A DNA stretch of 64,000 nt. It comes from an uncultured Acidobacteriota bacterium (GTDB lineage: Bacteria > Acidobacteriota > Terriglobia > Acidiferrales > UBA7541). Where the stretch lies: NCBI GenBank assembly GCA_963788915.1, contig CAWBIY010000001.1, forward strand, positions 16,470 to 80,469, in the 5' to 3' direction. Position numbers and translations under genes: made by a program. Below, piece after piece: positions 19,645 to 38,254 of the stretch. The notes beneath the pieces are model-generated. The model had not been told where the DNA came from and ran no database searches. It saw only the letters and a list, made by a program, of their open reading frames with translations. How positions within the stretch are numbered: the stretch's first letter is position 1; each line of letters starts with the position of its first letter.

Positions 19645-20022
19645 ATGTAAAAGTCCCTAACTCTCCTCGCTGCCCTATTTCTATGTCTAACGGTCGCCGC
19701 CGCTGGCCCCAAACCGCAGTCAGGCAACATTCTTTCGCACACCTCTGTCGCGTGTGGTACAAAGAAATCCAAAAAACAGGACCTCGATCTGCTGTGCCAG
19801 CAGTATGTCGTCCGCTCCGGCACGACCGACTACACCATTCGTCAGCCGAAACCCTCCGAACAGGCCATTATTCCGCTAAACACAGCAATCGAGTTCAAGC
19901 TCGACAACAATAAAATGAAGTTCAAGGTCGACGGGAAATCGTTCGAATTCATCGTCATCTCCCAGGCCGCTGCATCTTCTTCCGCCGCCGCACCGGCCTC
20001 TTCCGCTCCTAATCATCAGTAG
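19645..20022 (+). pseudogene. Small secreted protein with TAA at codon 2
   Basis: AGGAG RBS, then ATG-TAA-KSLTLLAALFLCLTVAAA...SVACG...LLCQQYVVRSGTTDYTIRQ...*; otherwise open. Confidence 0.6.
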
Positions 20023-20116
20023 CTCGCGTGAACCGTCTCAGAAGGTGAGGAGAAGTGTCTTGGCGGCGTAACTTTCGCCTTGGATCGCAAATCCAAAAAC
20101 AGTTCGGCGAAAGTCA

Positions 20117-20185
20117 ACTCCTGTTAATGCGCAAACCGGACAAGTCCTCAGTACCCAAGTTACCGGTAACGCGACAAATCAGGAA
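20117..20185. repeat. Two dyad sites head to head (20117-20145 on +, 20157-20185 on -)
   Basis: ACTCCTGTTAATGCGCAAACCGGACAAGT and, on the minus strand, TTCCTGATTTGTCGCGTTACCGGTAACTT. Confidence 0.65.
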
Positions 20186-20415
20186 TTAGCCGGGGGTATG
20201 TGGAGCGGCACCACGTCGCCACCCTGCCAAGCGTGTTGTCAGTGCTCTCTGGAAAGTGCGTAGGGGAAACAAATGAGGGGACTTAGCTGGGTGGCCCCGA
20301 ACCTTTTGCTGTCAGCTTTGCCGTTACTTTACGAGTAGAGGAGGCCCAGGGGGATCCCTAGTTGCGCGCGAGCCACGCGCCGTCGTAAATATTGCCCGTA
20401 TCGGGGAGGTGCGAC

Positions 20416-20952
20416 ATGAATTGCTGGAAGCGAACTGCATTTTGGTGCATGACAATATTAGCCGTGGTCAGCCTTTCCACTTTGGCGCAAGCTCAAACAA
20501 ATCCGTTTACGAAGGCGCAGGTGGGCGACCGCATCCGTAAAGTGGAAGACGGCGTGGACCAATTCCAAAAGTATCTCGAAAACCGTGGACAAAACGCCAA
20601 GAACCGCGCCGACTCGGCACAAAGCAGCGGAGCGACAACGCGCCGCCAGCGTTCGGATTCAGCGAACACAGACGCTCGGACAAACCAAGCCAATCAAACA
20701 AAAGACGATCTCGAAAATGCCATGGACGATTTGAATCGCACAACAAACCGTCTTCGGCGCAAGTTCGACCCCACGTCGAATTATCTCGAAACAAAGGCAC
20801 AAATGGAGCAGGTCATGGACAGCGCACGCCGCGTGAATCAGGTGATGACCAAGGGGAATTACGGTAGTCAGGCAGAAAAATACTGGGCCGCTTTGCGCGC
20901 GAATATCAATGACCTTGCGCGATGCTACAACTTGACTCCCATGGGCGCGTAG
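20416..20952 (+). CDS. Secreted helical hypothetical protein
   Basis: GGAGG RBS, signal peptide (AQA), helical low-complexity body. Confidence 0.7.
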   Translation: MNCWKRTAFWCMTILAVVSLSTLAQAQTNPFTKAQVGDRIRKVEDGVDQFQKYLENRGQNAKNRADSAQSSGATTRRQRSDSANTDARTNQANQTKDDLENAMDDLNRTTNRLRRKFDPTSNYLETKAQMEQVMDSARRVNQVMTKGNYGSQAEKYWAALRANINDLARCYNLTPMGA

Positions 20953-20971
20953 GTCACCGAAAGTCTGATTA

Positions 20972-21515
20972 ACGCTGCCAGTTCAGACGGTCGATGCAAC
21001 ACTGGCTTGCAGTTTACTCGCCGGAGTCTGAAAACCTAAAGTCTGTCTAGCGCGCTGATTTAAGCGCAGTGCGACCCGATCGAGCTGTGCCTGAGAGTAG
21101 ACAGATAGGTTGGTTCCTCGCGGGAAGTATTGCCTTAAAAGGAGGTTGGTGTTTTCGTTCGTGCCGCGCTGCCAGGGACTTTGCGGATCGCAGAAATAGA
21201 CCTGCACATCCGTAGCTACCGTAAAGTCCTGGTGTCTCGCCATCTCCAGTCCGCGGTCCCACGTCAGCGAGCGCCGCAGGGTAGCGGGGAGTTTACGAAT
21301 ATGCCGACTCAATGCCGTCACCACCACTGCGGAGTCTTTGCTGGGCACCTTGATCAGCATGGCAAAGCGTGAATGACGCTCCACTAACGTCACGATGTGA
21401 CTGTTCCGTGAGCCGCTTAACAGATCGCCCTCCCAATGACCAGGGACCGCGCGGTCCGCAACTTCAGCGGGTCTTTCCCGGATCGAGATGGCTTTGGGAA
21501 TTTGACCGCGCGGGT
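20972..21515 (-). mobile_element. IS30-family transposase, 3' half only
   Basis: ISIRERPAEVADRAVPGHWEGD...TLVERHSR...PWQRGTNENTNLLLRQYFPRG...VASTV*. Confidence 0.85.
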
Positions 21516-21519
21516 GTCG

Positions 21520-22268
21520 GCATCGAGACCAGCAGCAGCGCTGATCACCATGTTGTGAAAGGACAGCTCGAACGGAAGAAGAAGCAGGTCGAGATTCGCG
21601 GGCTAAACAGAAATTATAATCACGATCTGAAAAATCTTTTCAAGGGAGCGGCGATCGTCGCCGCGACCAAGCCCGGTCCCTTCGCGGAGTTCTATGCGGA
21701 ATTGTTGGCTAAAGGCATGCGGCAGGAAATGGCGCGGCTGACCCTGGCCAGGAAGATTGCCACCATCGTTCTGATCGTGTGGAAGAGAGGAGTGCGCTTC
21801 GACGCCCAACATCTGAAACCACAAACAGCTTGAGTGTTTCTGAGCGCTTCCGCTCCATCCCGGGGATCTCTCTGGCGGTGGCCGTCAAGTTCTCGAGACA
21901 CTCTGGTTCGAGAGCAAGTCTCAGCCGATAAGTTAGACGCTGCGTGCTTCGCGCACCCAGTCTCACACCCGACGCTAGGCCCTCTCGGATAACCAGAAAA
22001 AGCTATGGGCCACGAGTCCCGGATAGAACTATGGTCGCCAACTGACCGAGATTCTGCTTTGCTGGTTTCGGGACTGACCGGCTTCGTTGCGAACCGGCAA
22101 TGAAAACCGCTGGTAGCGAAAACCCAAACCGCCGGGCCACCGTGTCCAGCAACCGAGCACCTGGCGCGGCAGGTCAGAACAGATCCTGCTCAATCAATTG
22201 GGCTGCGAAGCGAGAAAACGTCCAGCCATTAGAGATGTGTCTTTTCTTGACTTCTACCTTTATAGAAC
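21520..22268 (+). mobile_element. IS110-family element A, 5'-truncated (transposase tail 21520-21833, long 3' NCR, right end)
   Basis: RGLNRNYNHDLKNLFKGAA...ARKIA; ends CTTGACTTCTACCTTTATAG|AAC; highly similar to element B. Confidence 0.85.
21834..22265 (+). ncRNA. Putative bridge/seekRNA-encoding non-coding region of IS110 element A
   Basis: CCGATAAGTT (21925-21934) is the reverse complement of junction AACTTATCGG (22266-22275); ATAGAACT (22023-22030) equals the element end. Confidence 0.65.
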
Positions 22269-22280
22269 TTATCGGGAGTT

Positions 22281-22556
22281 AGGGGCCGGGGAGCGCGAGG
22301 ATACTGCGCCGTGCGGGAAGGCATCGCTGTGAAAACCGTGTGGCCAGGGCTTGCCATCCATACTGACTCCCCGATGAGTGCTGCCAGGATCGCGGAAGTG
22401 TTCGTCGAGCACCAACGATCCGGTTTGTGCGTCAAAGTTCCCAAGTCTTTGGCGCGGTAGGTTCGAACCGATCAGGCTCATTCACGTGGGCTGGGAAGCA
22501 AGAAAAGCTCGGGTCGATGCAGTTGTGTTTTTTCTTGACTTCCCGTTTTGTAGAAC
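22281..22556 (+). mobile_element. Right-end remnant of a related IS110 element (D)
   Basis: Ends GTGTTTTTTCTTGACTTCCCGTTTTGTAG|AACTTAGCAGG, homologous to the ends of A and B. Confidence 0.6.
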
Positions 22557-22978
22557 TTAGCAGGAACTGGCTTCTCGGGTGTGCGATCACCACGCATTTG
22601 CAGAATAAGTGCCTCAATGAAATATTCGACCCAGCTACGCAGCGTACCCTTGCCAATTTCCAACCCGTGCCAGAACTGCGGCATCGGGGTGGAGAATCTA
22701 AACGTAACATAGCTGCCCGCAGGCTGCGCCACAACGGATACGACGACACACTCTTGCGTCTGATCGTTGGCTTGGTTCGTTGCCATGATTCGCTGGCCGG
22801 GTTCGACACTACTCGCCATCCAGATCAATCCGCCAGTTTCATTGATGGAGATCGTAAAGGTCTCCTCGTAAAACGGATCGCCACCTAGCAGAGAGCCGTA
22901 GATGAACAAAGGGAGATGGGCAGCAATCCGGCTCGTCGCGCGGCGATCGGTGTGTTCGGCAGCGGATGTTTCCGTCAT
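22478..22978 (-). CDS. Degenerate PilZ-like protein; C-terminus runs into IS end D
   Basis: DRRATSR...EETFTISINETGGLI...FRFSTPMPQFW. Confidence 0.6.
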   Translation of the reverse strand: MTETSAAEHTDRRATSRIAAHLPLFIYGSLLGGDPFYEETFTISINETGGLIWMASSVEPGQRIMATNQANDQTQECVVVSVVAQPAGSYVTFRFSTPMPQFWHGLEIGKGTLRSWVEYFIEALILQMRGDRTPEKPVPAKFYKTGSQEKTQLHRPELFLLPSPRE

Positions 22979-23296
22979 TTTGGTGTCCTTGCGCTGGAGC
23001 GCAATAACTCGACTCAATTTACGGCGGCGTCCAAAGCAGGTCTACTGGTCGAAGGAACAGTTCGGAAAAAATTGGGTGGCAGGCCTTGAGCCGCGAGGAC
23101 TTCGGCCAAAGGCAGCCGAAAGCGATGGTACTCCAGGGACGTGGGACACATGGGCAGGCGAAAATACAAGTCGCACTGGCTGTTCGACCAGTTGAAGTTC
23201 CCCTGACGCTGAGAGACTATTCCGGCAGTTCTCCAGAATTCGAAGGATGACTCGCAACGGCCTTTATCAATGTGGATGGGGGACTAGGAGGGTCTA

Positions 23297-24613
23297 GTGT
23301 CATCTAGTCAGGTCGCACCCGCACAAAAACGGCGCAGCTCGCGCATTTCCAAAGCCATGATGCTGGCAGTGAAGAGCGTAGATACCTCCCGTCCACCCTA
23401 TCGGGAGGAAGTTACGACAGGCTCGATTAGTTGTCACGGTTGCACCTACAAGATGAGACATGAGCCTCGTCCTGGCGAGATGGTGGTTCTGGATACGGGA
23501 CTCTCGACAGGCCACTCTGGATTCCCCAGCATGGCACGGGTGAAATCGATACAGAGGCTAAACACCTCCAACGATCCAACGTACAACGTGGGCGTGGAGC
23601 TGGAAATCGCCGGCAATATCTGGGGGATTTCGTCACCGCCAGCAGATTGGTTTCCCCGGCAATCAGGCAATTTCGCAGAGTCCGCGAGTCACGGACGACA
23701 ATCGGGGCTCATAGCGCGGACCGAACCGCAACGGGCTCTGGCCCGGACCGAAGCTGCTACACCGGTTCCCGTCTTGAAGAAAAACGAGGCGGCCGCCGTA
23801 CTGTCACCTTGGTTTGCCAACCTGATGAACGCCTTAAGCAATCAGGTTCAAACAGCGGTCTGTGAAATTGCAGCAGCGACGTTAGCCGATGAAAGGAAAC
23901 GTCTGCTGGACGAGTTTCGTTTTCAGATTCAGAACGAGGCGATCGGAACGATTGAGCATGTGATCGCGACCTCGAAAGAGGAATTGGCCCGGCGCGGGCT
24001 GAAAGTACTGAGCGAGGGGGCGCAGGCCATCGTCAAAAACAGCCAAGGGAGCTTAGTTGGGGCTATCGAGCGACACCTTGAAAATGCCCAGCAGAACCTC
24101 GACACCATGGCGACTGGCACGGTTGAGCGGGTGGAACGCAACTTGGAAACCTCACGCACCAAAGCAACGGAGCGCTTCGTATTGCGGCTGCGAGAGCAGG
24201 TGGCGCCCGTGATGGAAGAAGCGAGAGCGGACTTTCAGAAACTGGTGGCATCTCAGACCGTTTTCAAGCAAGAATCGCAGGCAATTTACAGACGAGTCAC
24301 GGACCAACTGGAAAGTGACGCGAACGCACGATTGCTTCAGACTCACGACCAGTTGGAGAAAAACTCCACTTTCGTTGTGAACGAGTGTAACGAAAAGATG
24401 CTTGAGCTTTCGCAAGCGTTCGAGAAGATCACGCGAGATAGCGCACAGAACATGATCGCGTCGGCTACGGACCAAGGCAATAAGAACCTGGAAGAAAGAG
24501 CTGCCGAGATATCCAGCCATTTCACGGGTCAGTTGGAAGGCCATGTCCGCAGTTATCTCGAATTCATTGGGGAGTCGATTAGAGAGTTTCCAAAGAAACC
24601 TCCGGCCGCTTAA
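23297..24613 (+). CDS. PilZ-like N-terminal domain plus long coiled coil
   Basis: KRRSSR...SISCHGC...VGVELEIAGNIWGISSPPADW followed by a heptad-rich region. Confidence 0.7.
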   Translation: MSSSQVAPAQKRRSSRISKAMMLAVKSVDTSRPPYREEVTTGSISCHGCTYKMRHEPRPGEMVVLDTGLSTGHSGFPSMARVKSIQRLNTSNDPTYNVGVELEIAGNIWGISSPPADWFPRQSGNFAESASHGRQSGLIARTEPQRALARTEAATPVPVLKKNEAAAVLSPWFANLMNALSNQVQTAVCEIAAATLADERKRLLDEFRFQIQNEAIGTIEHVIATSKEELARRGLKVLSEGAQAIVKNSQGSLVGAIERHLENAQQNLDTMATGTVERVERNLETSRTKATERFVLRLREQVAPVMEEARADFQKLVASQTVFKQESQAIYRRVTDQLESDANARLLQTHDQLEKNSTFVVNECNEKMLELSQAFEKITRDSAQNMIASATDQGNKNLEERAAEISSHFTGQLEGHVRSYLEFIGESIREFPKKPPAA

Positions 24614-24736
24614 GGCCGTTTGTACTGCTGGGAGCCTCACCCTTGCGTCGTTGGCGGATGCAAGGGAGGGCGAATACCCGCGGAACTGATTTTCCGGCGA
24701 CGACCTTCTCGATCGCTCGCGCGACACGTTGAGGGT

Positions 24737-24960
24737 TTATTGCTCCAGGGGGCTAGTCTGAAATCTTCCCATGCCGCTTAGCTGTACGACGACAGTGCCT
24801 TCCTTCGCTGCCACAAAATGAGGAACGCCGGCGGGAATGATGATGAAACTACCTGCGGGGTAGCCAGTTAGCTTCGCTGAGTCGAATTTTGTTCCCTTGC
24901 CCAGATACCAAGTGCCTTCGATCACCGTCACTAGTTCGTACCATTTTGTGACGATGAGAA
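24737..24960 (-). pseudogene. C-terminal half of a cupin-domain protein
   Basis: ELVTVIEGTWYLG.G..FD...PAGSF..IPAGVPHF; N-terminus replaced next to dyad site copy 4. Confidence 0.6.
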
Positions 24961-24974
24961 GGCTAGCTGACCCT

Positions 24975-25003
24975 GTGCCTGGTAAACGCGAAACCGGAAA
25001 CTT
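24975..25003 (+). repeat. Dyad site, copy 4 (GTGCCTGGTAAACGCGAAACCGGAAACTT)
   Basis: Same family of arms. Confidence 0.65.
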
Positions 25004-25027
25004 GGGTTCCGGCAAGCAGATGGACGA

Positions 25028-25258
25028 CTACCGCAAAGCATTCCAAGCAAGAACGAGCACAACGAAAGCAAAAACCGCTCCCCAGGCAACGACGAAAGCC
25101 ATCAACACCTTTTTCGCCGGCTTTCGCCATACCTCCCTTTGCGGCTCACGAATGGATAGCAAGGCGTAGAACAGCAAGGGGAAGCCAAGTAATATTTTAG
25201 CCGCAGTCCACCAGTTTCCTCTGGTCATGAAAGGCAATGTACACCCGTTATTCTGCAA
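25028..25258 (-). CDS. Small two-TM hypothetical protein
   Basis: Two hydrophobic segments; lies between dyad sites 4 and 5. Confidence 0.4.
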   Translation of the reverse strand: MQNNGCTLPFMTRGNWWTAAKILLGFPLLFYALLSIREPQREVWRKPAKKVLMAFVVAWGAVFAFVVLVLAWNALR

Positions 25259-25292
25259 TCGGAAGAGCGGCCATCTGGAAGTCTCTCGCTCA

Positions 25293-25323
25293 AGTCCTGG
25301 TTAACGCGCAAACCGGACAAGTC
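25293..25323 (+). repeat. Dyad site, copy 5 (AGTCCTGGTTAACGCGCAAACCGGACAAGTC), abutting the right end of IS110 C
   Basis: GTCC(T)GGTT...AACCGGAC dyad. Confidence 0.75.
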
Positions 25324-26357
25324 CTATAAAAAGGAATGTCAAGATAAAAGCCCTCCCTTCCGGTCCGATGCCGGTCCTTTTCGCCTAGTTGGGCATTCAG
25401 CCCAACTGTTTGAACGTGCTCCCTCGAGGTTCCATTTCGCTGTCGTGACGGCGTCAATCGTTTTCTGAAACAACAAGCCTGACGGTTGTCCACGGGATGA
25501 GTGGCAACGCCTGGTCCTATTGGAGACTCGCGGCCTAGGGCTTTCTTCGATTGTCCGAGAGGGCCTAGGGTGGATTCGGAGACGCGCGGGCTTAAAGCAC
25601 GGGCCTGACTTGTCCGATGGATACTTCCCCTCGAAACCGAGCGTCTCAAGAAGCCGACGGCCACCGCCAGGAATGGTTCCCAGGAGGACCGGACTCTTTG
25701 CCAGAGACGCTCAAGCTGCTTGTGGTTTCAAATAGTTGGCGTCGAAACGGACCTCCTTGTTCCAGACGATCAACGTGATCGCGGCAATCTGCCTCGCCAA
25801 GGTCCGGCGCGCCATCGTGGGCTTCCTTCCTTTGGCCAACAAAGCCTCATAGAAATCGCGGAGTGGTCCACTACGGCTGCTGACTCTTGTTGCTGCACCC
25901 TTAGAGATATCTTTGAGGTCGTGGTTGTGGTCCTTATTGAGGCCACGCAGCGTTACCGATTTCTTGGAGCGATTTAGCTGTCCATCCACAAGGCGGTATG
26001 GCGCACTGTCATGCGTTTCTAATCCCAGACCACTGTAGGTCCACAGCTGTCGCTGGGTGCGGAATCGGTGGGGTGTCTGGAGGAGTGCGACCAACAGAGC
26101 TGACCGGATCGGACCGCTCCCCGGAATCAGGCGCAATAGTTTCCACGCCTTGTGTTTTCTGCTCTCGGCCAGGAGATCGCGTCGCACTTCCTGGCGCAAC
26201 AGCCGTAAGACATCGAGCTGTTGGTCGTAGTGTTCGGCGCGTCGCCGGACGCCGGCTTCGGTGATCTTGCTGAGCCATTCCGAACGGTGGCGTGGTGCAT
26301 ACACTTCGTTGCCGGCACACGGAATGCCCCAACTGCGATACAACGCCTTGAGCGCCT
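25321..26357 (-). mobile_element. IS110-family element C, 5'-truncated (transposase C-half 25711-26357, NCR 25324-25710)
   Basis: YRSWGIPCAG...QTPHRFRTQRQLWTYSGLG...ARQIA; right end CTTGACATTCCTTTTTATAG|GAC. Confidence 0.85.
25324..25710 (-). ncRNA. Putative bridge/seekRNA region of IS110 C
   Basis: CGGACAAGTC (25616-25607) is the reverse complement of junction GACTTGTCCG; ATAGGAC (25520-25514) equals the element end. Confidence 0.65.
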
Positions 26358-27735
26358 GGACTTTATCCACGGGCTTCGCGGAGAGTTGCAGGTCACTTTT
26401 GAAGAAGGAACCTGGGCGACCTGGTTGTACGATCTGCTGAAACCGCACGTAACGAAACTGGTGGTGTGCGATCCGCGGAAGAATAGCAGACAGGGGAATA
26501 AGAATGACCGGATCGATGCACGCGAGCTGTCCGACCGGTTGTACATGAACAAGCTCAGCTCGGTCTATCACGGCGGCGCAGGAGTCCGCACGCTGAAGGA
26601 ACTGGCACGCAGCTATCTGACCATCAGCAAAGATCTCGCACGAGTCATGACCCGGGTGAAGGCGATCTATCGCAGTTGGGGTATTCCTTGTGCCGGCAAG
26701 CAAGTCTATGCGCCGCGTCATCGTGCCGAGTGGCTGGCGAAGATCACCGAGGTGGGGGTGCTTCGCCGGGCCGAGTTTTACTACCAGCAACTCGATGCCC
26801 TGAGGTCGTTGCGCCACGAAGTACGGCGCGATCTGTTAGCCGAGAGTAAGAAGCACAAGGCGAGCGAAACTGCTCTGCCAGATCCCTTCGATCGGTCCGA
26901 TCCGGGCGGCGCTGTTGATCGCGCTGATCCAGACACCGCACCGCTTCCGCACCAAGCGACCACTCTGGAAATACAGCGGTTTTGCCATCGAAACGCACAG
27001 CAGTGCCGATTACCGTAAAGTCCAAGGACAGCTAGAACGAACCAAGAAGCAAGTTTCGGTTCGTGGACTCAACCGAGACTGCAATCACGATCTGAAGAAT
27101 CTGTTTAAGAGCGCCGCCACCATCGCTTCGGTCAAACCGGGTCCGTTCCAGGAGTTCTACGCGGCCTTGGTGGCCAAAGGGATGAGACCGGAGATGGCAC
27201 GCCTGACCCTGGCGAGAAAGATTGCCACGATCGTATTGATCGTATGGAAGAAAGGAGTGAGCTTCGACGCCAAATATCTGAAACCACAAACAGCTTGAGT
27301 GTCTCTGATCGAGTCCGCTCCATCCCGGGGATCTTCTCTGGCGGTGGCCGTCAGGTTCTCGAGACACTCTGGTTCGAGAGCGAGTCTCAGCTGATAAGTT
27401 AGGCGCTGCGTGCTTCGGGCACCTAGTCTCACAGCCGACCCTAGGCCCTCTCGGACAACCAGAAAAAGCTATGGGCCACGAGTCCCGGATAGAACTATGG
27501 TCGCCAAATTTGACCACGTTCTGCTTTGTTGGTTTCGGAACTGACAGGCTTCGTTGCGAAGAAGCGATGAAAACCGCTGGTAGAGAAAACCCCAACCGCT
27601 GGGCCACACTGCCCAGCAACCGAGCACTTGGTGCGGACGGTCAGAACAGATCCTGCTCCATCAAGTGGGCTGCGAAGCAAGAAAAATTCCGGCCAATGCA
27701 GAAGTGTTTTTTCTTGACTTCTACCTTTATAGAAC
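26358..27735 (+). mobile_element. IS110-family element B, 5'-truncated, transposase frameshifted near 26868
   Basis: VTFEEG...KNDRIDA (RuvC-like DEDD part), C-terminal domain, NCR, end CTTGACTTCTACCTTTATAG|AAC. Confidence 0.88.
27299..27732 (+). ncRNA. Putative bridge/seekRNA region of IS110 B
   Basis: CTGATAAGTT (27391-27400) is a 9/10 match to the reverse complement of junction AACTTACCAG; ATAGAACT at 27489-27496. Confidence 0.6.
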
Positions 27736-27932
27736 TTACCAGGACTTGAGAAGGTTCAGTCCGCTGGGAGCAACGTCAACCTCAGAGCGTCTTTCTCGAA
27801 ACCTCCGCGCTTCAGCCAGCAATCGACACTCCGCAAAATTGGCACTCTTCTCTGTGCAGCGGGGTTACATATTCCGTTACGGAAACTGACGGCTCGCGGC
27901 ATCCAATATCTTGCGTTCGCTATAATTAACGC

Positions 27933-28901
27933 GTGTCGAAACGCCATTGCACAAGCCGCGCTGAGTGGCGGCTTCAGACTGGAAAGCCCGCGGAGGCCCT
28001 TTCTGCACATTACCGACTCGACTGCGACTACGGAACCGCAGTCATAACTTGCTGGGAGGAAGCCGGGAGTGAGCCGATCTACGTGTGTGAAAGTCACGCG
28101 AAACAGCTGGGCCGCTCTCGCGATCATTGCCCGGACGTCCGCATCATAACGGCTCAATCGGACCACTGCGACAATCCGATAAAAGGTGAGGATCGAACCC
28201 CAAGTCAGGAGGTCGCTGAGATAAAGCCGAAGGGCTCCGCTTCGTCGGAAGCTGCGCGCAGTCTTGCGGATATAAAGGCTGGACGAGCAATGATCGATCC
28301 ATCCGTCAGATCCCCTGTCCGCGACCTGACATATGGAAATTCGGCAAAGGCTATGGTGGACGAAGCTATTTGGAATCTGGCAACCGGGGACTACCAGGTT
28401 TACAGAACCGCGCTACAGCAAGGGAAGTCCGCTAGCGAGGCGGCACAAGCCGCTGGCGGGCAGTTGGCGGTTATCCACCGTAAAATCAGCGATTACACGC
28501 TTAAACTAGAAGCTGTCCTCTCAGAATCAAAAGCTACAATCAATGTAGGAGAAGCCATAGATAAACCACTCGAACACGCCGTGCTTGAAATTATCAGCAG
28601 TGGCACAACGACCGACTCGGAAAAGGACGCTGCCATTGAGCAACTCGGTACGCTTCAAGAATGGGTTAAACACGGTCTGCGCGGAGACATAACTCCCCTG
28701 CAAGCGAACCGAATCATGCTGGCTATTGGTGACCGCCTAAACTGGGGAGGAACTACCGACGTTTCGGAGAAATCCAAGGCGGTCTATCGGGCGCTATACG
28801 GTAGCCTGAAAACTGCAATTCGTACCGCCGTTCCTGAGACGCAAAATCTTCACGATCGACTGACCAACTTGTACACGGCCAAGTCTGACTTGAAAGAGTA
28901 A
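27933..28901 (+). CDS. Hypothetical protein (Cys/His-rich N-terminus, helical C-terminus)
   Basis: 322-aa ORF; no recognisable family. Confidence 0.6.
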   Translation: MSKRHCTSRAEWRLQTGKPAEALSAHYRLDCDYGTAVITCWEEAGSEPIYVCESHAKQLGRSRDHCPDVRIITAQSDHCDNPIKGEDRTPSQEVAEIKPKGSASSEAARSLADIKAGRAMIDPSVRSPVRDLTYGNSAKAMVDEAIWNLATGDYQVYRTALQQGKSASEAAQAAGGQLAVIHRKISDYTLKLEAVLSESKATINVGEAIDKPLEHAVLEIISSGTTTDSEKDAAIEQLGTLQEWVKHGLRGDITPLQANRIMLAIGDRLNWGGTTDVSEKSKAVYRALYGSLKTAIRTAVPETQNLHDRLTNLYTAKSDLKE

Positions 28902-29389
28902 CCGCCACGACATCTCCGGCCGTTCGTACAGGTAGGCACGAGAGTTACATGGTGGAGAGAATGGGTTCTCAGCCGGGAGGACGAGATGATCACAGTAGTC
29001 GAAATCGTGGTCGGGCTGCTGATTTACACGGCTATCGCGAAATGGCGCAAGAGGCAGGAAGAAAAACAGGAGGATCAAGAATACGCGGCGGAACTCTCTC
29101 GAAACTGGGAGCGACACCCCTGGATGTACTCACACTGACCTGTTTGGACGCCGACCGGGTAAGAACGCGACGAGAAGACGGCGGCTGCCGCGACGACGCT
29201 CGTCTTAGTACCGCGCTTGGTCGAGCCCGACTTACCATCCAAGAGGTTCGAAAACCTAGACCACCGCGGGTCCCAGGACGGGGATTCATACAAGCGGCGC
29301 GTTCCTCAACTGGCGTTTGTTGTCAGTCTTTTTGACCACAGCCGTGCTGGGCCGTCTTTAAGGTTAATTCTTTGCTTTAATACCCAGGC

Positions 29390-30290: not shown

Positions 30291-30513
30291 GACTCGCTCC
30301 CAACTGGCCGCATGCGTACGCGTTGCGTCCAAAAAGGGCGAACGCGCGCATCATTCTGGTTCCGAATGAGTACGGCTCTTCGCGGCGACAGGGAGAGCCA
30401 TTTATGCATCACGCAACCCCCTAAGCCGCTCCTTTTCGCGGCGCGCTCCGTGTCCTATACGGCTAGGATGGTGCTGGCACAGCCCGACCGCGGTGGCTTG
30501 CAAGCAGCGACTT

Positions 30514-30800
30514 TTCACACGTTGCGCACATACTTAACTCCGCTCAACAAACTCCTGAAGGATTGGCTTAGGTCGTTTCCTAATGTGGGTCCGCTGCCAT
30601 GCATTCTTCAAGAAACAGTGGACTGGCTCAAAGATCTCAAAGATAAAGACAAAGCGAAGGAATCCTGTTTGGTACGCCGGTAGGGCCGACGCCGTCACCG
30701 GGCTGGCGAACGGCGGCGGAAACCCAGCGGTCTTGAAAACGTGCCGGAAATAATCGGGTTGAATGTTTTCAATCGCTTGCAGGGGTACTGGTTGGGGCAA
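30514..30800 (+). repeat. About 290-bp direct repeat, copy 1 (copy 2 about 35129-35410; partial copy 3 about 35935-36025)
   Basis: Shared blocks such as TGCATTCT(T/C)CAAGAAACAGTGGACTGGCTCAAAGAT and GGTACGCCGGTAGGGCCGACGCCGTCACCGGGCTGGCGAACGGCGGC. Confidence 0.9.
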
Positions 30801-30954
30801 TTTGGCAATCGTCTTTTTCCCGGCGTACTATTGGACTTTTTTCCGGGTCAGCTTTATTCTCAAACCCGCGAACTGCTTCAACCAGTCGATCGGTCACCTT
30901 TGTGACAAAGACAGGCCCCTCGACCCAAGTCCATCGAAAGAAGGCAAAAAATCG

Positions 30955-33900
30955 ATGAAGAATCTCGCGGTGTCCCTGTGTGCCCTCGCTGTTTCGCTCT
31001 TCGGTGGAATGACCGTTGATGCTCAGATCACCACGGTAGCGGGCGGCGGCCCGCCGACCACGGGCACGACGGTGAACAAGACCGGCACGAGTATCGGCGC
31101 CCCAGCTGCCGTTCGCCAAGACCATTTGGGTAACACCTACATTCTGGACAACGATTTAGGTCGCGTCTTCAAGGTCGATGCGATGGGCCACCTGACCCTC
31201 TTCGCTGGCAACGGCACAGTCGGGTACAACGGCGACAACATACCAGCCGTGAGTGCCGCCATGGACGGCCCCAGCGGCCTGTGCATCGACGCCAACAACA
31301 ACGTCTATATAGCCGATTCCGATAACGCGATCGTGCGCGAGGTCGTGGTGGCAACCGGAATGATCCACACGGTTGCCGGTATGCCAATGGAAACCAACTT
31401 CACCTACGGCGGCGACGGCGGGCTCGCCACCAGTGCCAACCTCCACTTCCCGGATGGCTGCTCGTTCGACAGTCGCGGAAACCTGTACATCGCCGACCGC
31501 GGCAACAACGCCATTCGTATCGTGATTCTCGGCACCCCGACTGCTGCCTTTCCTACGGTGGGCAATATTTATCGCTTTGCTGGCGCAAACCCCGCTGCTA
31601 ACCCCGCTCCTCCTCCTGCTCTCCTCCCGCCCGCTCCAGGCTATGGCCCTGACAACACTCCGGCGATCGGCGCGGCCCTCAACGGCCCTTTTGACGTGTT
31701 CGTGGATACCGCCGACAACGTCTTCATCGCCGATCTTGGCAACCCCGGTACAACCTCGAATAACGTCGTCCGCGAGGTTCCTGCAACAACACCCCAGACT
31801 TTTCCGTTCGTCATGGCCGTCGGCAACATCTACACGGTGGCGGGCATGCATGGGCAAAGCGGAGCTGCTACTTCCGGCGTCCCCGCCACTATGGCGAAAT
31901 TGAACGGGCCTGAGGGCATCTTTGTCGACATACATCAAAACCTGTTCTTCGTTGACGTCGGCAACCAGGTGGTCCGCGAAGTCGCCGGCCCAACGCCATC
32001 CGCCGGGATGACCGCAGGAGACATCTACACGATCGCTGGCAACGCTAGTAAAGGATATGCAGGCGACGGCGGCGTGGCAATCAGCGCCAGTCTCGCCAAC
32101 CCGGCCGGTTCCTTCGTTGACGCCACTGGATCCGTTTTCATCGCCGACGAAAGCAATACGCGCATTCGCCAAGTCACTTCCACCACTGCCAACTACACCA
32201 CGGAAACCATCAGTACCTGGGCTGGCAATGGCTCCATTTCCTTCTTCAACGCCGCGCCCGCTACCGCTGGCCAGCTCGACGCGCCGGCCGGCCTCGCGGT
32301 CGACGCGACGGGCGACCTGGCCATCGCCGATGTGGGCTTCCAAGGCGAGCAGAGCTTGATTCGTAAAGTTGCAACTCCGATCGCGAGCGGCGCTCTCAGC
32401 ACCCTCGTCGGTTCACCCGGATTCAACGGATTCGTGAACGCCACGAACACCGGCTTTCCCAATTACGTGGAAAACGATGCCATCGGCGTCGCTTTCGATT
32501 CTTCCGGAAACCTGTACATCGCTGACACCGGTAACTGCATCGTCCGCAAGCTCTCTGCCGGAGTCATGACCACTGTGGCGGGCGTGGAACCTACCATTGA
32601 TGTGGCCAATCCACCGAATAGCACGCCCAACTGCGGATTTGCAGCCCAAGGCGGAGCCGCCGTCGGCACCCTGCTGGGCGCTGTCAACAGCGTCGCGCTC
32701 GACGCTACCGGCGACATTTTCTTCTCCGACGCCACCAACAACATGATCTGGGAAGTTCCCAAGAATACCGCGGGCACCATGACTGCTGGCAACGCCTACG
32801 TCATCGCTGGCGTACAGGACACCACCGGCTCGTTTGGTGGCGAGGCCGGCGCCGCTGTGAATGCCCATTTCAATAAACCCACAGGTGTTTCCTTCGACGT
32901 CTACGGAAATCTGTTCATCGCCGACACTGGCAACAACATCATCCGCGAAATTCCGGCCGACAATACCGCCGGGAAGACCGCCGGCTTCATCTACACCGTC
33001 GCCGGAGACAAGGCCGGCCAAACCGCAGGGTACGCCGGTAACGGCGGTGTGGCCACAGCCGCAAAATTGAACGCGCCATTCACGATGGTGGTCGACAATG
33101 CCGAGGACATCTTCATCGCCGACACGAATAACCACGTCATCCGCGAAGTAGCCGGCACGACGGCCGGCGGCAAGACCGCGGGCGACATCTACACCGTAGT
33201 GGGCACGAACGTCGCTGGTTTCACCGGCGATGGTGGCCCTGCGGCCACTGCTGAGCTTAATGCCCCGCAAGGCTTGGCGCTCGATGGAGCTGGCGATCTG
33301 TTGATCGGCGATTCCCAGAACATTCGCGTACGCAGTGTCGCGGGCATCGCGAACGTAGCGGCGGTTCCCGTAGCCAGCTTCCAACCGTCCAATCTGACTT
33401 TCACGGCCCAACCGCTGACCGTCAAGTCGACCGCTCAGGTGGTTACTCTGACCAATAACGGCGGCACCATGCTAACGGGCATTGCCATCACCCTCGGTGG
33501 CACAAATGCGGCTAACTTCGCCGACACAACTACCTGCACCGCCGCACTCGCCGCTGGCGCCAACTGCACTATTAGCGTGACCTTTACACCCACTGTGGTC
33601 GGCCCCGCGTCTGCCACGCTATCCATCGCGGACAACGCCGTTGGCAGCCCTCAAACAATCGCGCTCACCGGAACCGGCCAGCTCGGTTCTCCCACAGACG
33701 TTGTAACTCCCAATCCGATTGCGTTCACTACCCCGCAACTCGTCGGTGTCGCCTCTGCGGCACTTCCCGTCACCCTGAGCAACGGGGGCACCGGTGCCCT
33801 GGTAATTTCCAGCATTACCTTCGGCGGCGCGAATACCACCGACTTCACTCAAACCAACAATTGCGGCACAACCGTGGCCGCCGGCGCCACTTGCACCATT

Positions 33901-34935
33901 AACGTCGTCTTTAACCCGACCTCGGTGACACCGCCCGCGCGTGCCGCCACGTTGATCCTCACAGACGATGCCGCGAACAGCCCGCAAAGCGTACCCGTTA
34001 CCGGCAACGCCATCGCTCCGGCCATCAGCATCACTCCCGCCAGCCTGACCTTTGCCAGTCAGACGGTGAAAACTCAGTCGGCGCCTCAGACGGTCACCAT
34101 CAAGAATACGGGCACCGGGCCCTTATCCTTCACCGGTACCGGCATCACCATCGCCGGTGCCAACGCTGCTGACTTTGCTATCGTCGGCGCGGGCGATACG
34201 TGTTCCCCTCCCCTGGCCGCGGGTGCGACGTGCAGCTTCAACGTCGTCTACAATCCAGCCGCAGCCGGGACAAGCACCGCGACGATCGTTGTGGCTGACA
34301 GCGTTCCATCCAGCCCGCAACTGATCCCCTTGAGCGGCACAGCCACGGCTACGCCCCCAACGCTGGCCTTAACCTTTGGTCCCGCTGCTGGCGCCTCGCC
34401 ATCACAAACCGTTACCGCCGGCCAGACGGCCACTTATATGTTGCAAATCGGCGCGAACGTGAATGCCAGCGTAACCTTCAGTTGCTCTGGCGCTCCGACG
34501 GCTGCGACGTGCCCTGCTCCGGCCACCGTCGCATTGACTGCCAATACACCGGCTCCCGTCGCCGTTACCGTGTCGACCACCGCCCGCAGCATGCTGGCAC
34601 CGCAATCGGAACCCGCGACCAGGATGCAACCTCCCGTCGCGCTCCAGATGTTGCCGCTCTCCGTGCTGGCCATGCTCCTGTTGATCATCACCTTGCTGGC
34701 CGCAACACAGAGTCCGGCAGGACGCCTGCGCTTCGCCCGCGTAGCACTCTCTGCCTGCCTCGTGCTGATGCCCATCGTCGCCGCTACGCTAATGGGCGGT
34801 TGCGGCGGCGGAAGCTCCAGCCCACCGCCACCACCACCAGTCACCGGAACGCCCGCTGGCACCTACATGATCACCGTCACGGCAACCTCCGGCAGCACCA
34901 CGGCAACGACTCAGTTGACGCTGGTCGTGCAGTAG
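30955..34935 (+). CDS. Large surface protein: signal peptide, many NHL repeats, three ASPM-SPD-2-Hydin/choice-of-anchor-D-like Ig domains, C-terminal TM segments and acidobacterial GCGGG...TYxITVTATSG tail
   Basis: Repeated L..P.G..vD..GNlyIAD..N..IR.V and G..GDGG.A..A.L units; LTF..Q......Q.VTL.N.G repeats. Confidence 0.88.
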   Translation: MKNLAVSLCALAVSLFGGMTVDAQITTVAGGGPPTTGTTVNKTGTSIGAPAAVRQDHLGNTYILDNDLGRVFKVDAMGHLTLFAGNGTVGYNGDNIPAVSAAMDGPSGLCIDANNNVYIADSDNAIVREVVVATGMIHTVAGMPMETNFTYGGDGGLATSANLHFPDGCSFDSRGNLYIADRGNNAIRIVILGTPTAAFPTVGNIYRFAGANPAANPAPPPALLPPAPGYGPDNTPAIGAALNGPFDVFVDTADNVFIADLGNPGTTSNNVVREVPATTPQTFPFVMAVGNIYTVAGMHGQSGAATSGVPATMAKLNGPEGIFVDIHQNLFFVDVGNQVVREVAGPTPSAGMTAGDIYTIAGNASKGYAGDGGVAISASLANPAGSFVDATGSVFIADESNTRIRQVTSTTANYTTETISTWAGNGSISFFNAAPATAGQLDAPAGLAVDATGDLAIADVGFQGEQSLIRKVATPIASGALSTLVGSPGFNGFVNATNTGFPNYVENDAIGVAFDSSGNLYIADTGNCIVRKLSAGVMTTVAGVEPTIDVANPPNSTPNCGFAAQGGAAVGTLLGAVNSVALDATGDIFFSDATNNMIWEVPKNTAGTMTAGNAYVIAGVQDTTGSFGGEAGAAVNAHFNKPTGVSFDVYGNLFIADTGNNIIREIPADNTAGKTAGFIYTVAGDKAGQTAGYAGNGGVATAAKLNAPFTMVVDNAEDIFIADTNNHVIREVAGTTAGGKTAGDIYTVVGTNVAGFTGDGGPAATAELNAPQGLALDGAGDLLIGDSQNIRVRSVAGIANVAAVPVASFQPSNLTFTAQPLTVKSTAQVVTLTNNGGTMLTGIAITLGGTNAANFADTTTCTAALAAGANCTISVTFTPTVVGPASATLSIADNAVGSPQTIALTGTGQLGSPTDVVTPNPIAFTTPQLVGVASAALPVTLSNGGTGALVISSITFGGANTTDFTQTNNCGTTVAAGATCTINVVFNPTSVTPPARAATLILTDDAANSPQSVPVTGNAIAPAISITPASLTFASQTVKTQSAPQTVTIKNTGTGPLSFTGTGITIAGANAADFAIVGAGDTCSPPLAAGATCSFNVVYNPAAAGTSTATIVVADSVPSSPQLIPLSGTATATPPTLALTFGPAAGASPSQTVTAGQTATYMLQIGANVNASVTFSCSGAPTAATCPAPATVALTANTPAPVAVTVSTTARSMLAPQSEPATRMQPPVALQMLPLSVLAMLLLIITLLAATQSPAGRLRFARVALSACLVLMPIVAATLMGGCGGGSSSPPPPPPVTGTPAGTYMITVTATSGSTTATTQLTLVVQ

Positions 34936-35128
34936 CCCAACCAGCGGCATCCCTGCGATGCCCACACACTCTCTCTCCAGCGGCGCCTTTCGCAACCATG
35001 CGGAAGGCGCCGCTGCCTTTTAGCCATCCACCCGCCGTTAATTTAGCCAACGCACCTGTAGCCGCCCTCTTTTACCCTGAGCTTTGAAAGGCCGAGAGGG
35101 GAGGGGGGTTTAGAGCAATCAGCCACGT

Positions 35129-35410
35129 TCCACACGTTGCGGATCTACCTAACACCGCTACACAAACTCCTAAAGGAGTGGCTCAGGGCTTTTCCAAATG
35201 TGGGTCCGCTGCCCTGCATTCTCCAAGAAACAGTGGACTGGCTCAAAGATGAAGACAAGAGCGAAGGAATCCTGGTCGGTACGCCGGTAGGGCCGACGCC
35301 GTCACCGGGCTGGCGAACGGCGGCAGAAACCCGGCGGTCTTGAAAACGTGTCGAAAAAAATCGGTTGATGTTTTCACTGGCTTGGATAGGTACTAGCTGG
35401 GACGACTTGG
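35129..35410 (+). repeat. About 290-bp direct repeat, copy 2
   Basis: Aligns with 30514-30800. Confidence 0.9.
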
Positions 35411-38226: not shown

Positions 38227-38254
38227 GTGCCTGATAAACGCTAATCGGACAAGT
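38227..38254 (+). repeat. Dyad site, copy 6 (GTGCCTGATAAACGCTAATCGGACAAGT)
   Basis: Same family; just downstream of the CPBP gene. Confidence 0.65.

What the first reader, a model, noticed from the sequence alone, without database searches (positions are those of the whole stretch)
21834..27742. Natural guide/target covariation in three IS110 copies (bridge/seekRNA programming visible in sequence)
Seen: each right junction reads element end-core-flank, and each 3' NCR holds two matching segments at homologous positions. A: junction ATAG-AAC-TTATCGG; NCR CCGATAAGTT (10/10 reverse complement) and ATAGAACT. B: ATAG-AAC-TTACCAG; NCR CTGATAAGTT (9/10) and ATAGAACT. C (minus strand): ATAG-GAC-TTGTCCG; NCR CGGACAAGTC (10/10) and ATAGGAC. 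When the core changes from AAC to GAC, both segments change with it. Known: in IS110 bridge RNAs the left guides share sequence with the top strand and the right guides are complementary to it, which is the pattern of a right target guide and left donor guide here. Inference: a programmable recombinase family whose guides were retuned to different parts of the same dyad site (left arm for A/B/D, right arm for C).
Basis: partly seen in the sequence, partly recalled or inferred. Interest (0 to 1): 0.8.

Follow-up and report, generated by a model that had tools for sequence, protein, structure and literature searches.

The report
Guide RNAs of decayed IS110/IS1111 elements
Four broken copies of an RNA-guided (bridge/seekRNA-type) insertion sequence still carry short guide segments that match the DNA they landed in, a correct and well-supported reading of a mechanism already described in 2024.

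Summary
In copies A, B and C a 10-nt segment about 92 nt into the 3' non-coding region is the reverse complement of the right junction (10/10, 9/10, 10/10). A 7-nt segment at about nt 190 repeats the element end.

I collected 160 related loci from Acidobacteriota genomes and soil metagenomes. Across them the first segment co-varies with the right flank: 95 insertion events, 27 guide variants, 5.8 of 7 matches against 3.9±0.1 when guides and flanks are re-paired at random. I also found the missing left target guide about 40 nt downstream (4.0 of 5 against 2.5±0.1).

Both target guides sit on opposite sides of an internal loop, in a structure supported by compensatory changes. Their order (top-strand match 5', bottom-strand match 3') is the one published for IS1111 seekRNAs.

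- The core is AC, not AAC/GAC. The A/G is the last donor base, and a handshake-like base in the target loop tracks it.
- The two lineages hit two direct sub-sites 17 bp apart in one REP-like repeat, not the two arms of a dyad.
- All window copies are truncated relics.
- No right donor guide was found.

Verdict: a new, divergent member of a known kind. Interest is moderate to low.

The parts
21527..21833 (+). Copy A: remnant of the transposase gene (about the last 100 codons and the stop). The 5' side is cut off next to an rve integrase fragment.
   Evidence: Translation (GIETSSSAD...KPQTA*) aligns with the C-terminus of 353-aa homologues. The start coordinate is approximate.
21834..22266 (+). 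Copy A: complete 3' non-coding region (433 nt) ending in the left donor arm ...CCTTTATAGA. The subterminal inverted repeat CCTTTATA is at 22257-22264.
21907..21989 (+). Copy A: target-binding loop module. Basal stem UUCGAGAG/CUCUCGGA, 5' loop side with the right target guide (RTG), apical hairpin 21943-21957, 3' loop side with the left target guide (LTG).
   Evidence: Consensus fold and pair counts.
21925..21934 (+). Copy A: right target guide CCGATAA, core complement GU, handshake-like U.
   Evidence: 10/10 reverse complement of A|AC|TTATCGG. The column co-varies with the right flank.
21965..21973 (+). Copy A: left target guide (AC)ACCCG plus core AC. It predicts a left flank ...ACCCG|AC. The left junction is lost in the window.
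   Evidence: Mutual information and permutation tests on related loci. Coordinates.
22023..22029 (+). Copy A: left donor guide ATAGA plus core AC, in a single-stranded linker of a multiloop.
   Evidence: Identical to the element end ATAGA|AC. Unpaired in the consensus fold.
22267..22275 (+). Copy A: core AC (22267-22268) and right target TTATCGG.
22449..22563 (+). Copy D: solo 3' end fragment (about 105 nt, ...TTTTGTAGA), core AC at 22555-22556, right target TTAGCAG.
   Evidence: Repeat family D3, alignment.
25711..26353 (-). Copy C: transposase remnant (about the last 214 codons, C-type lineage). The N-terminal RuvC half is missing.
   Evidence: Full-length C-type relatives are 355 aa.
25323..25710 (-). 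Copy C: 3' non-coding region (388 nt) ending ...TTTTTATAGG.
25607..25617 (-). Copy C: right target guide UCGGACAA, core complement GU, handshake-like C.
   Evidence: CGGACAAGTC is the reverse complement of G|AC|TTGTCCG.
25570..25578 (-). Copy C: left target guide (CG)AAUCC plus core AC. It predicts a left flank ...AATCC|AC.
   Evidence: C-type relatives show LT ...AATCC|AC|ACATTATAAAAGG.
25514..25520 (-). Copy C: left donor guide ATAGG plus AC.
25295..25322 (-). Copy C: core AC and the REP-like target ACTTGTCCGGTTTGCGCGTTAACCAGGA. It also contains an unoccupied, degenerate A/B-type sub-site.
26356..27298 (+). Copy B: transposase remnant from codon ~41 to the stop. It lacks the first catalytic Asp and has a frameshift near 26866. 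It abuts copy C head to head.
   Evidence: 98% identical to P0001 after read-through.
27299..27733 (+). Copy B: complete 3' non-coding region (435 nt).
27391..27400 (+). Copy B: right target guide CUGAUAA, GU, U.
   Evidence: 9/10 to A|AC|TTACCAG.
27431..27439 (+). Copy B: left target guide (AC)AGCCG plus AC.
27489..27495 (+). Copy B: left donor guide ATAGA plus AC.
27734..27742 (+). Copy B: core AC and right target TTACCAG, followed by GACTTG of the REP-like repeat.

Best explanation
The region holds four decayed copies of an IS110-superfamily insertion sequence with IS1111-type organisation. Intact relatives have a ~95-nt left end, a 353-355-aa DEDD/Ser transposase, a ~430-nt right end, 8-9-bp subterminal inverted repeats and a core dinucleotide AC.

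The first ~260 nt of the right end encode a bridge/seek RNA. One internal loop, closed by a conserved basal stem and an apical hairpin, carries two target guides:
- On its 3' side is a left target guide: about 5 nt identical to the top strand of the left flank, then AC.

About 50 nt further on, in a multiloop linker, a 7-nt left donor guide (AUAG[A/G]AC) repeats the element's right end plus core.

Shown here: the anatomy, the covariation of both target guides with their flanks, the conserved scaffold around fast-changing guide positions, and the position of the guides outside conserved helices.

Inferred from the published IS621 and IS1111 work: the RNA is bound by the transposase, pairs with both strands of target and donor, and directs strand exchange at AC.

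Two lineages are present. A/B/D have donor end ATAGA and guides for ...CCG|AC|TTAYCRG. C has donor end ATAGG and guides for ...TCC|AC|TTGTCCGG. Their guides address two similar sub-sites 17 bp apart in the same REP-like repeat. Other relatives have been retargeted to unrelated sites (AATGTTAC, CGCTACGA, TGGCCGA).

The window copies cannot transpose by themselves. Each lacks its left end and an intact transposase.
For: Family:
- PF01548 and PF02371 hits on the window fragments and on thousands of 353-aa homologues from Acidobacteriota.
- NCBIfam 'IS110 family RNA-guided transposase' is the best model, though below its cutoff.
- Weak match to the IS621 transposase in the PDB.

Boundaries and core:
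- 82 left and 95 right junctions.
- A head-to-tail tandem reading ...TTTTATAGA-AC-GCGATATAAAAGG.

Right target guide:
- 95 distinct insertion events and 27 guide variants give 5.80/7 matches to the own flank. Re-pairing gives 3.90±0.11, with a maximum of 4.31 in 5000 permutations.
- Counting each distinct guide once gives 5.85 against 3.63±0.22.
- Within the A/B lineage alone: 5.9 against 4.57±0.13.

Left target guide:
- Found blind by mutual information.
- 4.0/5 identity to the own left flank against 2.51±0.11.

Structure (52 sequences):
- 41 pairs, 95.8% of cells paired against 33-48% in slid controls.
- 14 pairs with compensatory changes.
- Guide columns lie outside all helices.

Conservation in the A/B lineage: scaffold 92% pairwise identity, ORF 82.5%, guide columns 75%.

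Order of the guides (top-strand match 5' of bottom-strand match) and a module length of about 83-90 nt agree with IS1111 seekRNAs of 82-96 nt (PMC11187229; PMC13604230).

Handshake-like base: U with LD-1 A in 68 elements and C with LD-1 G in 53, while LT-1 is G or C respectively. The mechanism is described in PMC11208158.

The family's NCR is present in soil metatranscriptomes.
Against: - No right donor guide could be found by complementarity or covariation.
- The left donor guide is supported by only one covarying position, a lineage-level A/G change. Single-sequence thermodynamic folds pair it partly (unpaired probability 0.17-0.24).
- Covariation inside the C lineage alone is weak for the right guide: 5.73 against 5.38±0.10, with a permutation maximum of 5.77.
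- Rfam has no matching family.
- No RNA ends, transposase binding or transposition were observed. The metatranscriptome depth profile is mirrored by DNA metagenomes, so it shows presence only.
- No circle junction was seen in metagenome contigs.
- The transposase is very divergent: about 26% identity to plasmid-borne IS110-family genes and below the NCBIfam cutoff.
Confidence: 0.9

Rival explanations
1. The 'flank' is really part of the element. The complementarity is then a long-range intramolecular stem (RNA or single-stranded DNA) between an internal segment and the element's own terminus, kept by ordinary compensatory evolution.
For: The match always starts at the terminus, includes the last element base, and co-varies as a stem would.
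Against: - Similarity between copies stops 7-10 nt past the core.
- Copies with identical NCRs in one genome (CAWIAI, L026-L044) sit in flanks that differ by 1-2 bases from the guide.
- The flank continues into a REP-like repeat that also occurs without any element, in the window at 38254, 20145 and 14959.
- A tandem dimer joins ATAGA-AC directly to the left end.
- A second segment matches the left flank in the same sense, which a stem with the right terminus cannot explain.
Confidence: 0.02
2. This is passive homology. The non-coding region once captured a piece of the REP-like repeat, or recombined with it, so the short matches are leftovers without a guiding role. Target choice would be made by the protein.
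For: Most targets belong to one repeat family. Both A/B and C guides resemble each other and the repeat.
Against: - Only 7-10 nt match, in exact register with the core.
- The matches are split between two sides of a conserved structured loop.
- Relatives with the same scaffold carry guides for unrelated, non-REP sites and are found exactly there: GUAACAUU at AATGTTAC, UCGUAGCG at CGCTACGA, UCGGCCA at TGGCCGA.
- Guide columns are the least conserved positions inside the most conserved stretch.
- The mechanism is experimentally established for IS1111 and IS110 relatives (PMC11187229, PMC11208160).
Confidence: 0.04
3. The guide modules in the window are still in use. The truncated copies, whose RNA regions are complete, would supply bridge RNAs in trans to an intact transposase encoded elsewhere in the genome.
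For: - A, B and C keep complete RNA regions while their genes are destroyed.
- A and B are 95% identical over 21869-22041 but 76% over the ORF remnant.
- Orphan copies of the ISPpu9 small RNA gene are reported in Pseudomonas putida (abstract of PMC12288879).
Against: - The higher conservation of the RNA scaffold is a property of the whole family, active copies included. It needs no selection on the relics.
- Copy C carries a substitution that breaks an apical-hairpin pair.
- No intact copy and no left end occur in the 64-kb window.
- No expression data exist for this genome.
Confidence: 0.1

Closest known systems
IS1111-family seekRNA elements (ISEc11, ISPa11, ISKpn4, ISPst6; Siddiquee et al. 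2024, PMC11187229)
   Same: - Long non-coding region downstream of the transposase gene.
- Subterminal inverted repeats.
- A compact RNA module (82-96 nt there, about 83-90 nt here) holding one segment complementary to the top strand 5' of one complementary to the bottom strand, with the two overlapping at the insertion point.
- Transposase length of about 340-355 aa.
- A REP-type target, as for ISPa11.
   Different: - The transposase is only distantly related: about 26% identity to plasmid-borne IS110-family genes and below the NCBIfam cutoff.
- The catalytic-serine motif reads G[FL]x[IL]xxxxSA instead of GLxPxxxxS(T)G.
- The host phylum is Acidobacteriota.
- The core is AC.
- No experimental RNA data exist. 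Phylogenetic placement inside the IS1111 clade was not tested.
IS621 bridge RNA (IS110 group; Durrant et al. 2024, PMC11208160; Hiraizumi et al. 2024, PMC11208158)
   Same: - Guides on the two sides of an internal loop pair with opposite strands of the target.
[quoted passage not shown]
- A donor guide repeats the element end.
- A base next to the target guide's core complement matches the donor rather than the target (handshake guide).
   Different: - The RNA is in the right end, not the left end.
- The order of guides in the target loop is reversed (RTG 5', LTG 3').
- The donor guide sits in a multiloop linker, as Durrant et al. note for many IS1111 members.
- No right donor guide was found.
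- The core is AC instead of CT.
- The subterminal inverted repeats are long.
REP-targeting IS110/IS1111 elements (IS621, ISPa11, ISPpu9/ISPpu10; PMC12288879)
   Same: Site- and orientation-specific insertion into repetitive extragenic palindromic-like repeats, with many genomic copies.
   Different: Here two sister lineages occupy two neighbouring sub-sites of one repeat and can sit in tandem in the same repeat copy (L135, L158).

Membership tests
IS110 superfamily (DEDD/Ser RNA-guided transposases) | N-terminal RuvC-like DEDD domain (PF01548) and C-terminal Tnp domain (PF02371) with a catalytic serine | tested here: met
   - Both Pfam domains are present in all 120 listed full-length homologues.
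- Window fragments: PF01548 E=1.9e-6 (28.2 bits, just under the cutoff of 29) on B. PF02371 passes on B and C.
- The serine aligns with IS621 S241 in a variant ...SA motif (alignment A3).
- NCBIfam NF033542 is the top hit but scores 106-129 bits against a cutoff of 140.
IS110 superfamily (DEDD/Ser RNA-guided transposases) | Insertion without target duplication; the same short core at both junctions | tested here: met
   AC lies at both junctions in the 82 elements with both ends, and a single AC lies at the tandem junction. No empty/occupied pair of the same locus was obtained.
IS1111 group | Longer non-coding region downstream of the transposase gene | tested here: met
   About 430-465 nt downstream against about 95 nt upstream.
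IS1111 group | Subterminal inverted repeats of 7-17 bp | tested here: met
   Left ...GCAA-TATAAAAGG, right CCTTT(T)ATA-GA: 8-9 bp, set 4 and 2 nt in from the core.
IS1111 group | Transposase clusters phylogenetically with IS1111-type transposases | not tested
   No reference set of ISfinder transposases was available. The best plasmid-borne relatives reach only about 26% identity.
Bridge RNA / seekRNA | [quoted passage not shown] | tested here: met
Bridge RNA / seekRNA | Guide segments lie in loops of a conserved structured RNA | tested here: met
   Consensus structure with 14 compensatory pairs, and the guides lie outside all helices. Single-sequence folds are ambiguous for the donor guide.
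Bridge RNA / seekRNA | Donor-binding guides for both donor arms (LDG and RDG) | tested here: inconclusive
   An LDG candidate is present and conserved, with one covarying position. No RDG was found.
Bridge RNA / seekRNA | The RNA is made, binds the transposase and is required for transposition | not testable with these tools
   The only evidence is presence of the family's NCR in soil metatranscriptome contigs. DNA runs give the same depth profile.
Rfam RNA families | Match to a curated covariance model | tested here: not met
   No hit at E<=1 in 20000-29000.

The most novel reading that the evidence does not exclude
This divergent Acidobacteriota lineage may read its donor only half by RNA. 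A 7-nt left donor guide plus a one-base handshake would be used, while the right donor arm is recognised through the subterminal inverted repeat by the protein, with no right donor guide. That would be a simpler donor-recognition mode than the four-guide IS621 bridge RNA.
Probability: 0.15. Interest if true: 0.5.

Novelty: new member of a known kind. Interest (0 to 1): 0.3.

Why it matters
It shows that bridge/seekRNA programming can be read directly from raw sequence, even in dead copies. It also adds a large, well-sampled and very divergent Acidobacteriota family with at least 27 natural right-guide variants, including retargeting to non-REP sites. The IS1111-type target loop (RTG 5', LTG 3', one-base handshake) is defined in this family at single-nucleotide resolution.

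For specialists this is a useful natural data set on guide length, mismatch tolerance and IS1111-type donor recognition. It does not change what is known about the mechanism.

Tried and rejected
- Rfam scan of 20000-29000 at E<=1: nothing.
- Scan of viral contigs with a protein alignment: no relatives.
- Search for left ends in the window: none.
- Search for a right donor guide: 5- and 6-mer complementarity to LD-core-RD in both lineages, then lineage-specific RD variants. It gave only non-homologous or non-covarying hits, such as CGTTCT in the A/B lineage.
- Motif AGUCYC as a marker of a fourth guide: the fourth occurrence, near the start of the NCR, is not followed by anything donor-like.
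- Whole-set mutual information was dominated by the A/B versus C split, so it had to be redone within lineages.
- Metatranscriptome depth as evidence for a discrete RNA: rejected, because DNA metagenomes show the same bump over the conserved scaffold.
- Circle junctions or empty sites in metagenome contigs: none seen.
- Single-sequence MFE folds: over-paired and not decisive.

Full report
**What is there**

The stretch 21500-27750 holds four fragments of one insertion-sequence family.

- Copy A (21527-22266, +) is the last ~100 codons of the transposase gene plus a complete 433-nt 3' non-coding region (NCR).
- Copy D (22449-22554, +) is only the last ~105 nt of an element.
- Copy C (25323-26353, -) has the last ~214 codons plus a 388-nt NCR.
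- Copy B (26356-27733, +) runs from codon ~41 to the end, with a frameshift near 26866, plus a 435-nt NCR.

B and C abut head to head within about 3 nt. A is cut off next to an rve integrase fragment. No left end of the family occurs anywhere in the 64-kb window.

The gene fragments hit PF01548 (DEDD_Tnp_IS110) and PF02371. A read-through of B is 98% identical to 353-aa proteins that carry both domains. Thousands of such proteins exist in soil metagenomes and Acidobacteriota MAGs.

**The observation**

| Copy | Junction | 10-nt segment | Match | 7-nt segment |
|---|---|---|---|---|
| A | A\|AC\|TTATCGG | CCGATAAGTT, 21925-21934 | 10/10 | ATAGAAC, 22023-22029 |
| B | A\|AC\|TTACCAG | CTGATAAGTT, 27391-27400 | 9/10 | ATAGAAC, 27489-27495 |
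| C (minus) | G\|AC\|TTGTCCG | CGGACAAGTC, within 25617-25607 | 10/10 | ATAGGAC, 25520-25514 |

In 5000 shuffles of each NCR, an equally good hit anywhere occurred in 0, 0.7% and 0.04% of cases. The 7-mer occurred in about 2%. The hits lie at homologous alignment positions.

**More copies**

One scan of species-representative genomes gave 80 loci with full-length elements in Acidobacteriota MAGs. One scan of metagenome contigs with the C-type protein gave 80 more.

In these loci the element runs from [left flank]-AC-GCAATATAAAAGGGCGCCCC... (A/B lineage) or -AC-ACATTATAAAAGG... (C lineage) to ...TCTTGAC(N)CCTTTTATAG[A/G]-AC-[right flank].

A head-to-tail tandem in L064 reads ...CCTTTTATAGA-AC-GCGATATAAAAGG. 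This fixes the core as the dinucleotide AC. The base before it (A in A/B/D, G in C) is therefore the last base of the element's right end. On the left side the base before AC is G (A/B lineage) or mostly C (C lineage), and it comes from the target.

**Guide-flank covariation**

The segment after the conserved ...AGUCUCAG / ...AGUAUCCA changes from element to element, and the right flank changes with it. Examples:

- CUGUGAA with TTCACAG
- CUGGUAA with TTACCAG
- CCGAUUA with TAATCGG
- UAGAAAU with ATTTCTA
- UCGUACAA with TTGTACGA
- CCGGUAAA with TTTACCGG

Some guides address sites outside the usual repeat:

- GUAACAUU with AATGTTAC
- UCGUAGCG with CGCTACGA
- UCGGCCA with TGGCCGA

Over 95 distinct events and 27 guide variants, 5.80 of 7 positions match the element's own flank. 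Re-pairing guides and flanks gives 3.90±0.11, with a maximum of 4.31 in 5000 permutations. Counting each distinct guide once gives 5.85 against 3.63±0.22.

Within the A/B lineage alone the result is 5.9 against 4.57±0.13. Within the less variable C lineage it is 5.73 against 5.38±0.10, which is weak.

**The second target guide**

I computed mutual information within lineages between NCR columns and flank positions. Besides the known segment, this picked out columns about 40 nt downstream (about 65 columns in the gapped alignment) that are identical in sense to left-flank positions -1 to -5.

Read out, this is ...GUCUCAC-A[NNNN]G-AC-CCUAG in the A/B lineage and ...GUCUCCG-[NNNNN]-AC-CCUAU in the C lineage. 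Examples:

- ACGCG with ...TTACGCG|AC
- AGACG with ...AAGACG|AC
- AGGCG with ...TAGGCG|AC
- ACGCC with ...TACGCC|AC
- AUUUU with ...ACTTT|AC
- UAAAC with ...CGTAAAC|AC

Identity to the own left flank is 4.0 of 5 against 2.51±0.11 re-paired. Both lineages are separately above all 2000 permutations.

In the window these left target guides are at 21965-21973 (A), 27431-27439 (B) and 25578-25570 (C). Their left junctions are lost.

**Structure**

RNAalifold was run on 52 non-redundant sequences, and I added the visible apical hairpin. The result is 41 pairs in 8 helices:

- 95.8% of cells are paired, against 33-48% when partners are slid by 1-3 columns.
- 14 pairs carry compensatory changes.
- No shuffle reached the observed values.

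The target module is a basal stem (UUCGAGAG...GUC / G[GU]C...CUCUCGGA), then a 5' loop side with the right target guide, an apical hairpin (CGUGC-loop-GCACG), and a 3' loop side with the left target guide.

The AUAG[A/G]AC segment lies in a single-stranded linker of a multiloop closed by an outer stem. Durrant et al. note this arrangement for many IS1111 members (PMC11208160).

Single-sequence minimum-energy folds do pair the donor segment partly, but those pairs have no covariation support.

In the A/B lineage the scaffold is more conserved (92%) than the adjacent ORF (82.5%). The guide columns are the least conserved (75%).

**Comparison with what is known**

The order found here, with the top-strand match 5' and the bottom-strand match 3', is the order reported for IS1111 seekRNAs. 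It is the reverse of IS110-type elements (PMC11187229, abstract and section 9). The 83-90-nt module matches the 82-96-nt short seekRNAs. The downstream NCR and the 8-9-bp subterminal inverted repeats are IS1111-group traits.

The base 3' of the right guide's GU is U where the element end is ...A, and C where it is ...G (68 and 53 elements). The target base at that place is G or C. Pairing with the non-cognate donor but not the cognate target is the property of the IS621 handshake guide (PMC11208158).

It is essentially one lineage-level change, with one exception (L156), so it is suggestive only.

**The target**

Most insertions are in a REP-like imperfect palindrome of about 65-90 bp. Target logos:

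- A/B lineage: ttTCCGntaAccCG|AC|TtAtCaGGantTgg
- C lineage: gaatCC|AC|TTGTCCGgTaacc

The C-type right target overlaps the A/B-type left target. In L135 and L158 a C-type right end is followed by AC-TTGTCCGGTAACCCG-AC and then an A/B-type left end.

The two lineages therefore use two similar sub-sites (ACTTGTCCGG and ACTTACCAGG) in direct orientation, 17 bp apart, in one arm of the repeat. They do not use the two arms of a dyad. Uninterrupted, diverged copies of the repeat lie in the window at 38254, 20145 and 14959 on the minus strand.

**What remains open**

- No right donor guide was found.
- The donor guide rests on conservation, position and one covarying base. There is also one element (L157) in which the core position changed together in the right target guide (GU to AU) and the donor guide (AC to AU).
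- The family's NCR is present in soil metatranscriptomes. DNA metagenomes give the same depth profile, so this shows presence only.
- The transposase is remote from characterised members: about 26% identity to plasmid-borne IS110-family genes, below the NCBIfam cutoff, with an SA variant of the serine motif. Its place in the IS1111 clade was not tested.

**Verdict**

It is a new, divergent member of the known bridge/seekRNA-guided IS110/IS1111 kind. It is useful as a natural data set but not surprising to a specialist.

Noticed in passing
window 20983-21500 (-): A fragment of an rve (integrase core) transposase gene abuts the point where copy A is truncated. The region is a graveyard of nested or broken mobile elements.
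   Followed up: partly
window 26353-26356: Copies C (minus) and B (plus) are joined head to head within about 3 nt, at non-homologous positions of their genes (codon ~140 and codon ~41). The origin of this junction is unexplained.
   Followed up: partly
window 30500-30757 and 35115-35364: A ~260-nt direct repeat (89% identical) lies upstream and downstream of a 1390-aa ORF (30763-34935) with NHL, ASH/Ig-like and CARDB domains. It may be a shared leader of paralogous genes.
   Followed up: partly
window 38254, 20145, 14959 (minus strand): Uninterrupted, diverged copies of the REP-like repeat that the element family targets. The copy at 20145 shows both arms of the palindrome.
   Followed up: partly
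L157:1-1879: In this element the core complement in the right target guide reads AU instead of GU, and the donor guide reads AUAGGAU instead of AUAGGAC. The junction DNA still reads AC. This is a coordinated change of one core position in two guides.
   Followed up: no
L064:3990-4015: Head-to-tail tandem of two elements sharing a single AC (..TTTTATAGA-AC-GCGATATAAAAGG). It has the sequence expected of a circle junction.
   Followed up: yes
L135:1428-3037: An element with an A/B-type left end and left flank but a C-type right end, guides and right flank. It is an apparent inter-lineage hybrid.
   Followed up: no
L006, L054, L074 right junctions; metagenome run X48: In three genomes and one metagenome the element ends ...TATAG and is followed by the same foreign sequence, TCA[C/T/G]AATGGAATGACCGGCT, instead of A-AC-target. 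Another element may insert at this element's end.
   Followed up: no
L013, L014, L031, L044, L056 left flanks; L079 right flank: The recurrent flank GTTGCGTCGACCCATTGAGACCAC lies just after what looks like the 3' end of an IS30-like transposase gene. This is a second, non-REP insertion context used repeatedly.
   Followed up: no
window 21917-21922, 21959-21964, 22015-22020 (and the same places in B and C): The motif AGUCYC followed by 2-3 nt precedes each of the three guide segments (RTG, LTG, LDG). It could be a protein-recognition or positioning element.
   Followed up: partly
window 23297-24613 (+): A 438-aa ORF between the element copies has no Pfam match. Its C-terminal two thirds look like low-complexity helical repeats.
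   Followed up: no
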